A stretch of 64,000 nt of DNA from Escherichia coli (GTDB lineage: Bacteria; Pseudomonadota; Gammaproteobacteria; Enterobacterales; Enterobacteriaceae): NCBI RefSeq assembly GCF_002854065.1, contig NZ_CP024147.1. One strand, given 5' to 3'. This document shows positions 12,001 to 15,000 of this stretch, piece after piece. Position 1 is the stretch's first letter. Each line of letters opens with the position of its first letter. A program made the position numbers.

Positions 12001-15000
12001 GTTTTCCCGCCCGGTGTACGCCACCTTTGACTGGGGCATCCGCGATGCTGACGGTTATCACTTTATTCTCGGGCGCACTGACGATGTAATTAACGTTGCC
12101 GGGCATCGGCTGGGGACGCGCGAGATTGAAGAGAGTATCTCCAGTCATCCGGGCGTTGCCGAAGTGGCGGTGGTTGGGGTGAAAGATGCGCTGAAAGGGC
12201 AGGTGGCGGTAGCGTTTGTCATTCCGAAAGAGAGCGACAGTCTGGAAGACCGAGACGTGGCGCACTCGCAAGAGAAGGCGATTATGGCACTGGTGGACAG
12301 CCAGATTGGCAACTTTGGCCGCCCGGCGCACGTCTGGTTTGTCTCGCAATTGCCAAAAACGCGATCCGGAAAAATGCTGCGGCGTACGATCCAGGCGATT
12401 TGCGAAGGACGCGATCCTGGAGATCTGACGACCATTGATGATCCTGCGTCGTTGGATCAGATCCGCCAGGCGATGGAAGAGTAAGGTATTGTCGGATGCG
12501 TCGCGTGGCGCATCCGACACCATGCGCCGATGCCTGATGCGACGCTGACGCGTCTTATCATGCCTACAGGCCTGAACCGTAGGTCGGATAAGGCGCTCGC
12601 ACCGCATCCGACACCGTGCTCAGTGCCTGATGCGACGCAGGCGCGTCTTATCATACCTACAGGCCTGAACCGTAGGTCGGATAAGGCGCTCGCGCCGCAT
12701 CCGACACCGTGTGCCGATGCCTGATGCGACGCTGATGCGTCTTATCATGCCTACAGGCCTGAACCGTAGGTCGGATAAGGCGCTCGCGCCGCATCCGACA
12801 CCGTGTGCCGATGCCTGATGCGACGCTGATGCGTCTTATCATGCCTACAGGCCTGAACCGTAGGTCGGATAAGGCGCTCGCGCCGCATCCGACACCGTGC
12901 TCAGTGCCTGATGCGACGCAGGCGCGTCTTATCATACCTACAGGCCTGAACCGTAGGTCGGATAAGGCGCTCGCGGCGCATCCGACACCGTGCGCCGATG
13001 CCTGATGCGACGCAGGCGCGTCTTATCATGCCTACAGGCCTGAACCGCAGGTCGGATAAGGCGTTCGCGCCGCATCCGACACCATGCGCAGATGCCTGAT
13101 GCGACGCAGGCGCGTCTTATCATGCCTACAGGCCTGAACCGCAGGTCGGATAAGGCGCTCGCGCCGCATCCGACACCATGCGCCGATGCCTGATGCGACG
13201 CTTACCGCGTCTTATTATGCCTACCCACTGTTTTTACACCGATAATTTTTCCCCCACCTTTTTGCACTCATTCATATAAAAAATATATTTCCCCACGAAA
13301 ACGATTGCTTTTTATCTTCAGATGAATAGAATGCGGCGGATTTTTTGGGTTTCAAACAGCAAAAAGGGGGAATTTCGTGTCGCAAGATAACAACTTTAGC
13401 CAGGGGCCAGTCCCGCAGTCGGCGCGGAAAGGGGTATTGGCATTGACGTTCGTCATGCTGGGATTAACCTTCTTTTCCGCCAGTATGTGGACCGGCGGCA
13501 CTCTCGGAACCGGTCTTAGCTATCATGATTTCTTCCTCGCAGTTCTCATCGGTAATCTTCTCCTCGGTATTTACACTTCATTTCTCGGTTACATTGGCGC
13601 AAAAACCGGCCTGACCACCCATCTTCTTGCTCGCTTCTCGTTTGGTGTTAAAGGCTCATGGCTGCCTTCACTGCTGCTGGGCGGCACCCAGGTTGGCTGG
13701 TTTGGCGTCGGTGTGGCGATGTTTGCCATTCCGGTGGGCAAGGCAACCGGGCTGGATATTAATTTGCTGATTGCCGTTTCCGGTTTACTGATGACCGTCA
13801 CCGTCTTCTTTGGCATTTCGGCGCTGACGGTTCTTTCGGTGATTGCGGTTCCGGCTATCGCCTGCCTTGGTGGTTATTCCGTGTGGCTGGCTGTTAACGG
13901 CATGGGCGGCCTGGACGCATTAAAAGCGGTCGTTCCCGCACAACCGTTAGATTTCAATGTCGCGCTGGCGCTGGTTGTGGGGTCATTTATCAGTGCGGGT
14001 ACGCTCACCGCTGACTTTGTCCGGTTTGGTCGCAATGCCAAACTGGCGGTGCTGGTGGCGATGGTGGCCTTTTTCCTCGGCAACTCGTTGATGTTTATTT
14101 TCGGTGCAGCGGGCGCTGCGGCACTGGGGATGGCGGATATCTCTGATGTGATGATTGCTCAGGGCCTGCTGTTGCCTGCGATTGTGGTGCTGGGGCTAAA
14201 TATCTGGACCACCAACGATAACGCGCTCTATGCGTCGGGTTTAGGTTTCGCCAACATTACCGGGATGTCGAGCAAAACCCTTTCGGCAATCAACGGTATT
14301 ATCGGTACGGTCTGTGCATTATGGCTGTATAACAATTTTGTCGGCTGGTTGACCTTCCTTTCGGCAGCTATTCCTCCGGTGGGTGGCGTGATCATTGCCG
14401 ACTATCTGATGAACCGTCGCCGCTATGAGCACTTTGCGACCACGCGTATGATGAGTGTCAATTGGGTGGCGATTCTGGCGGTCGCCTTGGGGATTGCTGC
14501 AGGCCACTGGTTACCGGGAATTGTTCCGGTCAACGCGGTATTAGGTGGCGCGCTGAGCTATCTGATCCTTAACCCGATTTTGAATCGTAAAACGACAGCA
14601 GCAATGACGCATGTGGAGGCTAACAGTGTCGAATAACGCTTTACAAACAATTATTAACGCCCGGTTACCAGGCGAAGAGGGGCTGTGGCAGATTCATCTG
14701 CAGGACGGAAAAATCAGCGCCATTGATGCGCAATCCGGCGTGATGCCCATAACTGAAAACAGCCTGGATGCCGAACAAGGTTTAGTTATACCGCCGTTTG
14801 TGGAGCCACATATTCACCTGGACACCACGCAAACCGCCGGACAACCGAACTGGAATCAGTCCGGCACGCTGTTTGAAGGCATTGAACGCTGGGCCGAGCG
14901 CAAAGCGTTATTAACCCATGACGATGTGAAACAACGCGCATGGCAAACGCTGAAATGGCAGATTGCCAACGGCATTCAGCATGTGCGTACCCATGTCGAT

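What the first reader, a model, noticed from the sequence alone, without database searches (positions are those of the whole stretch)
12490..13230. Unusually long tandem REP/BIME array between prpE and codB
About 8 head-to-tail units of roughly 94 bp, each built from two palindromic REP cores, fill a prpE-codB gap of about 890 bp, which is longer than I recall for K-12. Such arrays can bind gyrase/IHF, stabilise upstream mRNA 3' ends, and are targets of REP-associated transposases, so copy-number expansion here could affect prpE transcript stability or local supercoiling. The ORFs predicted within it (64-92 aa) are repeat artefacts.
Basis: seen in the sequence. Interest (0 to 1): 0.3.

Follow-up and report, generated by a model that had tools for sequence, protein, structure and literature searches.

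The report
Long BIME-2 repeat array after prpE
The stretch between prpE and codB is a real but ordinary E. coli BIME-2 element, with Z2 and Y REP hairpins alternating in eight 94-bp units; its unit number varies from 1 to at least 8 between strains, and this long form also occurs in about 8% of complete genomes, including the O157:H7 lineage.

Summary
A 735-bp array at 12490-13224 fills most of the 892-bp gap between prpE and codB. It has period 93/94 bp, 7.6 copies and 93% match.

It is a textbook BIME-2. Eight Z2-type REPs on the + strand alternate with seven Y-type REPs on the - strand, separated by short linkers. A perfect hairpin starts 5 nt after the prpE stop codon. Seven units pass the Rfam naRNA4 (REP325) threshold. 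There is no IHF motif, no canonical intrinsic terminator, no promoter-like site inside the array, and no Pfam match for its ORFs.

The window is identical to E. coli XJ34. K-12 has 2 units in a 329-bp gap. Among 5,232 records that carry the locus:
- about 83% have 4 units or fewer (roughly 27% one, 51% two);
- about 81 have 5-7;
- about 420 (8%) have 8;
- about 45 may have 9-12;
- 314 are interrupted by more than 1.2 kb. All four of these that I inspected carry IS621 in a Z2 REP.

Three 8-unit alleles differ internally, and a 1-unit allele is an exact in-register collapse of the window allele. This fits local gain and loss of units.

The likely role is inferred from work on other BIME-2 elements: a 3'-UTR attenuator and stabiliser, and a gyrase site.

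This is already known biology and of low interest.

The parts
10598..12484 (+). prpE (propionate--CoA ligase), last gene of the prp operon; stop codon TAA at 12482-12484
   Evidence: ORF list; RefSeq annotation of the identical XJ34 record
12490..12519 (+). First hairpin: a perfect 11-bp inverted repeat (TGTCGGATGCG / CGCATCCGACA) with an 8-nt loop, starting 5 nt after the prpE stop. It is a symmetric Y-derived palindrome with no GTAG and no stem mismatch. It is present in all the alleles compared that are not from the B2 lineage, and in E. whittamii.
   Evidence: Inverted-repeat search; RNA fold -23.9 kcal/mol, z = -5.0; allele comparison
12490..13224 (.). Whole BIME-2 array: 8 units of 93/94 bp, 16 palindromes
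   Evidence: TRF; unit parsing; REP classing against published consensus sequences; 7 Rfam naRNA4 hits above the gathering score
12532..12567 (+). Z2 REP 1 (ends in CTAC; 34 of 37 identical to the Z2 consensus)
12579..12613 (-). Y REP 1 (GTAG, then a hairpin with an AA/GC stem mismatch, as read on the + strand)
12625..12660 (+). Z2 REP 2 (ATCATACCTAC variant; unit of 93 nt)
12672..12706 (-). Y REP 2
12719..12754 (+). Z2 REP 3 (unit 3 is identical to unit 4)
12766..12800 (-). Y REP 3
12813..12848 (+). Z2 REP 4
12860..12894 (-). Y REP 4
12906..12941 (+). Z2 REP 5 (unit 5 differs from unit 2 at one base)
12953..12987 (-). Y REP 5
13000..13035 (+). Z2 REP 6
13047..13081 (-). Y REP 6 (GCAG in place of GTAG)
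13094..13129 (+). Z2 REP 7
13141..13175 (-). Y REP 7 (GCAG in place of GTAG)
13188..13224 (+). Z2 REP 8, the terminal one (CTTACCGCG loop, ATTATGCCTAC). It is identical to the single Z2 of the 1-unit allele of strain A38.
13225..13376 (+). Unique codBA upstream region, conserved in all alleles whatever the array length. The only sigma-70-like match lies at 13261-13289 (TTTGCA-17-TATATT).
   Evidence: Allele comparison; promoter scan. The promoter assignment is an inference.
13377..14636 (+). codB (cytosine permease), GTG start

Best explanation
The element is a BIME-2 (bacterial interspersed mosaic element, type 2). It is a head-to-tail array of eight 93/94-bp units. Each unit holds a Z2-type REP and an inverted Y-type REP joined by short linkers. 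The array sits in the 3' untranslated region of the prpBCDE operon, upstream of the separate codBA promoter.

Shown here:
- the anatomy;
- the family assignment;
- that the locus is a variable-number repeat across E. coli (1 to at least 8 units) and already existed in E. whittamii;
- that alleles differ by whole units in register;
- that units within one array are turned over or homogenised.

Inferred: unit number changes by in-register unequal recombination or replication slippage between the near-identical 94-bp repeats. The RayT (TnpA_REP) transposase that the strain encodes may help.

Inferred from work on other BIME-2 elements: when the prp operon is transcribed, the hairpins block 3'-to-5' exonucleases, which protects prpE mRNA, and attenuate read-through into codBA in a partly Rho-dependent way, hairpin by hairpin. 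More units should therefore mean tighter insulation. As DNA, the Y REPs are probable transcription-independent gyrase sites.

The first hairpin lies within 15 nt of the prpE stop codon. This is the distance at which REPs are reported to damp translation of the upstream gene.
For: Anatomy and family.
- TRF finds period 94 and 7.6 copies.
- Against the published Y, Z1 and Z2 consensus sequences (PMC11208160), 8 palindromes class as Z2 on the + strand (32-34 of 37 identical), 7 class as Y on the - strand (28-30 of 35), and none as Z1.
- Seven units reach the gathering score of Rfam naRNA4. The preprint describes naRNA4 as one two-hairpin (Z2/Y) unit of REP325.
- The definition of BIME-2 as tandem z2+y units with short linkers, and the fact that copy number at a locus varies between strains, are both stated in PMC3333891.

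Polymorphism.
- Searches with flanks only give about 4,357 records with 4 units or fewer, about 81 with 5-7, about 420 with 8, about 45 with a gap of 800-1200 bp, and 314 with more than 1.2 kb.
- K-12 has 2 units. E. whittamii has 3.

Mechanism of length change.
- The 1-unit allele of A38 equals the window's 24-nt prefix plus the window's unit 8 exactly.
- Within the window, units 3 and 4 are identical and units 2 and 5 differ at one base. O157 and EP91A have their own identical pairs.
- There is no positional orthology between the three 8-unit alleles.
- XJ34 carries an intact rayT about 101 kb away.

Function by analogy.
- The RNA folds far better than shuffles (z = -14), and single hairpins range from -12.5 to -23.9 kcal/mol.
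- No canonical intrinsic terminator lies between prpE and codB, and no promoter-like site lies inside the array.
- REP325 (12 hairpins) acts as a partly Rho-dependent attenuator and an upstream-mRNA stabiliser, and gives a ladder of truncated transcripts (bioRxiv 10.64898/2026.03.23.713779).
- Gyrase cleavage sites are over-represented in BIME-2, preferentially in y REPs (PMC6379681).
- The 15-nt rule is cited in bioRxiv 10.1101/2024.07.17.603846.
Against: - No expression, 3'-end or gyrase data for this locus were available, so every functional step is by analogy.
- The 2026 preprint stresses that REP effects depend on context and that terminal REPs are not generally linked to longer mRNA half-lives.
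- Only a subset of BIME-2 elements is cleaved by gyrase in vivo.
- Two of the seven Y REPs have GCAG instead of the GTAG that TnpA_REP needs.
- The Z2 and Y sequences here are locus-specific variants (ATCATGCC rather than ATCAGGCC, GTCGGA rather than GCCGGA), so protein affinities may differ from those of the elements that have been studied.
- The counts for the 5-7, 8 and 9-12 classes come from gap-length thresholds, not from reading every array.
Confidence: 0.85

Rival explanations
1. The array grew mainly through RayT (TnpA_REP). In this view the enzyme cleaves at iREP and linker sites and transfers strands, or drives rolling-circle addition of BIME units. General recombination or replication slippage would play little part.
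For: TnpA_REP cleaves and recombines BIMEs in vitro, and models for tandem amplification exist (PMC3333891). XJ34 has an intact rayT. Most Y REPs keep the GTAG and the AA/GC stem mismatch needed for binding, and all Z2 REPs keep CTAC.
Against: Alleles differ by whole units between long identical stretches, which homology-driven events explain just as well. No in vivo amplification has been shown, and mobilome sequencing found no BIME circles. rayT is missing from about a third of E. coli genomes, yet the locus is polymorphic throughout the species. The two explanations do not exclude each other.
Confidence: 0.25
2. The array is selfish or neutral repetitive DNA. Its length drifts and has no consequence for prpE, codBA or chromosome topology.
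For: Lengths from 1 to 8 units are all viable and common. Some strains tolerate a 1.3-kb IS621 in the array, and one has lost it in a deletion that fuses prpE and codB as pseudogenes. The codBA upstream region is unchanged whatever the array length.
Against: A hairpin within 6 nt of the prpE stop is kept in every allele examined and in E. whittamii. REP325, a close analogue, measurably affects both of its neighbours.
Confidence: 0.3
3. The units are genes for naRNA4-like nucleoid-associated RNAs that act with HU to condense the chromosome.
For: Seven units pass the Rfam naRNA4 gathering score on the + strand, which is the strand transcribed from prpE.
Against: The Rfam model is in effect a BIME-2 unit model, and a second array in the window hits it too. 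A 2026 study found no effect of REP325 or naRNA4 on nucleoid compaction or on REP-REP contacts. No promoter-like site lies inside the array.
Confidence: 0.05
4. The ORFs of 61-92 aa inside the array encode real small proteins.
For: Five ORFs of at least 61 aa exist on both strands.
Against: None has a Pfam match. PGAP does not annotate them in XJ34 or in strain 9000. The unit length (93/94) is not a multiple of three, and unit number varies, so no frame is conserved between alleles.
Confidence: 0.01

Closest known systems
BIME-2 family of E. coli (tandem y/z2 REP arrays; Gilson, Bachellier and Hofnung; reviewed in Ton-Hoang et al. 2012, PMC3333891)
   Same: Z2 and Y REPs alternate in opposite orientation. 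The linkers are short. The REPs are bordered by GTAG/CTAC. The Y stem has a mismatch. The element is extragenic and tandemly amplified, its copy number differs between strains, and its sequence is homogeneous within the locus.
   Different: Only in degree. It has 16 palindromes against a maximum of 12 in K-12. It also carries locus-specific variants: Y with GTCGGA...TCCGAC, a compensated pair change from GCCGGA...TCCGGC; Z2 with ATCATGCCTAC instead of ATCAGGCCTAC; and an 11-nt linker, AGGCCTGAACC.
REP325 / naRNA4 (Rfam RF02564), the yjdM-yjdN BIME-2 of K-12
   Same: The unit architecture is the same, and 7 units pass the Rfam threshold. Both lie between two genes on the same strand, in the 3' UTR of the upstream gene. 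I therefore expect the same behaviour as a combined attenuator and stabiliser.
   Different: REP325 has 12 hairpins and this array has 16. REP325 sits inside an operon (yjdMN), whereas here the downstream codBA has its own promoter region. Nothing has been measured at this locus.
BIME-1 / RIP-RIB elements (y + L + z1, bind IHF)
   Same: They are built from REPs of the same superfamily and are extragenic.
   Different: This array has no Z1 REP, no long L linker and no IHF consensus. BIME-1 elements are single-copy, not tandem.
REPIN-RAYT systems (REP doublets mobilised by a single-copy RAYT)
   Same: Each adjacent Z2/Y pair can fold into one long hairpin of about 90 nt (-41 kcal/mol), like a REPIN. 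The genome encodes one RayT.
   Different: The units are amplified in place as a tandem array rather than scattered as single doublets. No mobilisation of this array has been shown.

Membership tests
BIME-2 | Built from z2-type and y-type REPs in alternating, opposite orientation | tested here: met
   Aligned to the published consensus sequences, 8 palindromes class as Z2 (+) and 7 as Y (-), in strict alternation, and none is best matched by Z1
BIME-2 | Short linkers between REP and iREP; no long L linker | tested here: met
   The linkers are 11 nt (AGGCCTGAACC, between the tails) and 10-11 nt (e.g. CCGTGCGCCGAT, between the heads)
BIME-2 | Occurs as multiple tandem copies whose number varies between strains | tested here: met
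   The window has 7.6 copies. Across 5,232 E. coli records the number runs from 1 to at least 8 units
BIME-2 | Conserved GTAG 5' of each REP (CTAC after each iREP) and a mismatch in the stem | tested here: met
   All 8 Z2 end in CTAC. Five Y have GTAG and two have GCAG. The AA/GC mismatch is present in the Y stems
BIME-2 | Extragenic location | tested here: met
   It lies between the prpE stop at 12484 and the codB start at 13377. No gene is annotated in the gap
BIME-2 | Bound and cleaved by DNA gyrase in vivo | not testable with these tools
   Known for a subset of BIME-2 elements (PMC6379681). No data exist for this locus
naRNA4 (Rfam RF02564) | Sequence and structure match at or above the curated gathering score | tested here: met
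   Seven + strand hits score 61.6-70.5 bits against a gathering score of 59.5
naRNA4 (Rfam RF02564) | Discrete HU-binding RNA with a role in the nucleoid | not testable with these tools
   The role itself is disputed
BIME-1 / RIP (IHF-binding) | z1 REP plus an L linker carrying an IHF site | tested here: not met
   No Z1 REP. No WATCAANNNNTTR anywhere in 12485-13235
Intrinsic (Rho-independent) terminator | GC-rich hairpin followed directly by a run of U | tested here: not met
   The only terminator-like match is an inner stem of the last Z2 followed by TTATTATG. The T5 run at 13238-13242 begins 14 nt after the last REP (13224)

The most novel reading that the evidence does not exclude
Array length at this locus may be a selected, discrete state rather than drift. 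Three haplotypes with unrelated internal unit patterns (XJ34, the O157:H7 lineage, and EP91A/GN05505) all hold exactly 8 units. Only about 1.5% of records hold 5-7 units, and about 1% may hold 9-12. Eight units might therefore be an optimum, for example for fully insulating codBA from the propionate-induced prp operon, or for forming a topological barrier, in certain (often bovine-associated) lineages.
Probability: 0.08. Interest if true: 0.45.

Novelty: already known. Interest (0 to 1): 0.12.

Why it matters
The finding mainly closes a question. The long repeat is not a new element, gene or assembly error. It is a BIME-2 variable-number repeat of a kind described since the 1990s.

Its practical uses are modest:
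- It is a natural allelic series (1, 2, 3, 4, 6 and 8 units on near-identical flanks). This could test the recent claim that REP arrays attenuate read-through and stabilise upstream mRNA hairpin by hairpin.
- It is a length marker that separates lineages, for example O157:H7 from K-12.
- Annotators should not call ORFs in it.

Tried and rejected
1. Higher-order repeat. TRF scores period 281 slightly above period 94, and identity at lag 281 is 0.85 against 0.68 at lag 94. The unit distance matrix shows this is mostly a register effect of the two 93-nt units plus two recent duplications, not a true 3-unit repeat.

2. Global RNA fold of the whole array. It predicts long-range pairing between distant units. 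I treat this as uninformative for a co-transcriptional fold and used single-hairpin folds instead.

3. IHF site, intrinsic terminator and internal promoter. None was found in the array.

4. Coding potential. The internal ORFs have no Pfam match.

5. Scan of one genome per species for the locus-specific linker plus Y motif. It gave a single hit, the orthologous locus of E. whittamii. The variant is therefore locus-specific and not a dispersed subfamily. The K-12 representative did not match because its linker differs.

6. Exact copy counts. The search tool lists at most 60 rows, so I used the rule it applies for joining aligned pieces as a gap-length threshold. I could not pull out and inspect a member of the inferred 9-12-unit class.

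7. Literature. The 2015 Molecular Cell paper on REPs within 15 nt of stop codons is not in the library, so it is cited indirectly. The supplementary figures of PMC3333891 are not held. No paper in the library discusses the prpE-codB repeat as such.

8. Positional orthology between the 8-unit alleles was rejected.
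Full report
**What is in the sequence**

The region 12490-13224 is a tandem array. Tandem Repeats Finder reports 12509-13224 with period 94, 7.6 copies, 93% matches, no indels and score 1206. Cut in register, the units are 94, 93, 94, 94, 93, 94 and 94 nt, followed by a truncated eighth unit. Self-identity peaks at lags 94 and 281 (0.68 and 0.85). The largest value in 500 shuffles was 0.357.

The array fills most of the 892-bp gap between the prpE stop (12482-12484) and the GTG start of codB (13377). The window is 100% identical to E. coli strain XJ34, a bovine isolate from China (NZ_CP098231.1). There the flanking genes are annotated prpC-prpD-prpE and codB-codA, and nothing is annotated in the gap.

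**What kind of element it is**

I aligned every palindrome to the three published E. coli REP consensus sequences, quoted in PMC11208160. Eight palindromes class as Z2 in the + orientation (32-34 of 37 identical). Seven class as Y in the - orientation (28-30 of 35). They alternate strictly, and none is best matched by Z1.

- Each Z2 ends in CTAC.
- Five Y REPs are preceded by GTAG and two by GCAG.
- The Y stems keep the AA/GC mismatch.
- The linkers are short: AGGCCTGAACC between the tails and 10-11 nt between the heads.

This is the definition of BIME-2 in PMC3333891: z2 and y REPs in multiple tandem copies with short linkers.

Independent support comes from Rfam. Seven units exceed the gathering score of naRNA4 (RF02564) on the + strand. 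The 2026 preprint describes naRNA4 as one two-hairpin unit of REP325, the 12-hairpin Z2/Y element of K-12.

The Y copies here carry a locus-specific compensated change (GTCGGA...TCCGAC for GCCGGA...TCCGGC). The Z2 copies have ATCATGCCTAC where the consensus has ATCAGGCCTAC. A second BIME-2 array in the same window (34999-35340, period 101) has the canonical forms and a different linker. Units are therefore homogeneous within a locus and differ between loci, as PMC3333891 describes.

The array begins with an odd member at 12490-12519. It is a perfect 11-bp palindrome made from two copies of the Y 3' arm, starting 5 nt after the stop codon, with -23.9 kcal/mol as RNA.

**What it is not**

- There is no IHF consensus in the array.
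- There is no canonical intrinsic terminator between prpE and codB, and no sigma-70-like match inside the array. The only promoter-like site is at 13261-13289, in the unique codBA upstream region.
- The five internal ORFs of 61-92 aa have no Pfam match and are not annotated by PGAP. They cannot keep a frame across alleles, because the unit length is not a multiple of three.

**Comparison across E. coli**

K-12 MG1655 has a 329-bp gap with 2 units. The search tool lists at most 60 rows, so I queried with the two flanks only. I read the span in the record for evenly spaced samples.

| Insert length between the flanks | Records split into two places |
|---|---|
| more than 1200 bp | 314 |
| more than 800 bp | 359 |
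| more than 700 bp | 779 |
| more than 420 bp | 860 |

The locus is present in 5,232 records. The differences between thresholds give these classes:

| Class | Records |
|---|---|
| 8 units (inserts of 751-759 bp) | about 420 (8%) |
| 5-7 units | about 81 (two 6-unit examples, H122 and H164) |
| gap of 800-1200 bp, possibly 9-12 units (not inspected) | about 45 |
| 4 units or fewer | about 4,357 (83%) |

In the two 60-row samples, 32 of 120 rows have 1 unit, 61 have 2, 6 have 3, one has 4 and one has 6.

The 8-unit class is dominated by the O157:H7 lineage (for example Vac_07.1, Z852 and strain 9000). It also includes an EP91A/GN05505 type and the XJ34 type.

The array is therefore long relative to K-12 and to most strains. 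At 16 hairpins it exceeds the range of 1-12 palindromic units quoted for K-12 REP elements. It is not unique, however, and the variation itself is a published property of BIME-2. E. whittamii has 3 units at the orthologous site, so the element predates E. coli.

**How the length changes**

The 1-unit allele of strain A38 is the window's 24-nt prefix joined to the window's eighth unit, base for base. The two alleles therefore differ by a clean in-register gain or loss of seven units.

Within the window, units 3 and 4 are identical and units 2 and 5 differ at one base. The O157 and EP91A arrays have their own identical pairs. Unit-by-unit distance matrices show no positional correspondence between the three 8-unit alleles.

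This is the signature of continuing local duplication, deletion and conversion between near-identical 94-bp repeats. I infer unequal recombination or replication slippage as the main route. RayT-mediated addition, demonstrated only in vitro, cannot be excluded. XJ34 has an intact rayT about 101 kb from the array, whereas megablast finds rayT in only 3,574 of 5,426 genomes.

**How it most likely works**

None of this is measured at this locus. It rests on analogy.

- The array is transcribed as the 3' UTR of prpBCDE if RNA polymerase passes the prpE stop. Its RNA is strongly structured (z = -14 for the whole array; single hairpins from -12.5 to -23.9 kcal/mol; adjacent Z2/Y pairs can also form one hairpin of -41 kcal/mol).
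- REP325 is the closest studied analogue. It protects the upstream yjdM transcript, reduces downstream yjdN expression about 8-10-fold in a partly Rho-dependent way, and yields a ladder of transcripts ending at successive hairpins. By analogy, the prpE-codB array should stabilise the 3' end of prp mRNA and insulate codBA from prp read-through, more tightly with more units.
- A hairpin lies within 6 nt of the prpE stop in every allele examined. In the B2 strain ST1193 the stop codon TAG is itself part of the GTAG of a canonical Y REP. That is inside the 15-nt distance reported to let REPs damp translation of the upstream gene (cited; the primary paper is known to me but not held in the library).
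- As DNA, BIME-2 elements are over-represented among gyrase cleavage sites. Cleavage prefers y REPs and rises when transcription is blocked. BIME-2 elements also tend to lie at borders between supercoiling domains. Eight Y REPs would offer several such sites.
- The naRNA/HU nucleoid-condensation role is now contested.

**Verdict**

The element is a member of a long-known family, at a locus where K-12 already has a shorter copy. Its length polymorphism is a documented family trait. Novelty is 'already known' and interest is low.

One reading that remains open is that the recurrence of exactly 8 units on three unrelated haplotypes, with few intermediates, reflects selection on length. I give that a low probability, because clonal over-sampling of O157:H7 and shared ancestry with later conversion explain it more simply.

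Noticed in passing
Loci L004, L010, L011, L012 (orthologous to window 12485-13235): In 314 of 5,232 records the prpE-codB gap is interrupted by more than 1.2 kb. All four that I inspected carry a 1,279-bp IS621 (IS110 family, the bridge-RNA recombinase). It is always inserted at TTATCAGGCCT^AC of a Z2 REP, the published natural target ATCAGGCCTAC. It occurs in at least three different array contexts: the only Z2, the last of two, and the second of three.
   Followed up: partly
window 12557-13224: None of the eight Z2 REPs of the window array carries the IS621 target 11-mer. Five have ATCATGCCTAC, two have ATCATACCTAC and one has ATTATGCCTAC. A single G-to-T difference separates them from the targeted alleles, so this long array offers no perfect IS621 site.
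   Followed up: partly
window 34999-35340: There is a second BIME-2 array on the opposite strand (period 101, 3.4 copies, 92% match). It has canonical Y and Z2 REPs, a 17-nt linker and three perfect ATCAGGCCTAC sites. It scores higher against Rfam naRNA4 (up to 88 bits) than the prpE-codB array does.
   Followed up: partly
L009 (strain AST205, NZ_AP043614.1 355158-355164): A deletion removes the whole array together with the 3' end of prpE and the 5' end of codB. Two abutting pseudogenes are left.
   Followed up: no
L018 27302-27799 (XJ34 record 3797301-3797798), outside the window: XJ34 has an intact rayT (REP-associated tyrosine transposase) about 101 kb from the array. Across the collection, megablast finds rayT in only 3,574 of 5,426 genomes. 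This is consistent with the published loss of rayT in B1 and B2 strains.
   Followed up: partly
L014 5903-6176 (Escherichia whittamii Sa2BVA5): The orthologous prpE-codB gap in E. whittamii holds 3 units of the same locus-specific BIME-2 variant. It was the only hit for the linker plus Y motif among one genome per species.
   Followed up: yes
L008 around 998 (ST1193, B2 lineage): In this lineage the prpE stop codon TAG is itself part of the GTAG tetranucleotide of a canonical Y REP. The first hairpin therefore starts directly after the stop, instead of the symmetric palindrome seen 5-6 nt downstream in other lineages.
   Followed up: no
window 37310-37346, 20138, 7807, 15999, 19460: There are isolated REP-like matches elsewhere in the window. 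One is a Z2 head at 37310 with the same ATCATGCCTAC variant as the prpE-codB array. There are also single ATCAGGCCTAC sites. I did not examine them.
   Followed up: no
L010 1-1525 (strain JNEC-KY171): prpE is annotated as a pseudogene with an internal stop in a strain that also carries IS621 in the downstream BIME.
   Followed up: no
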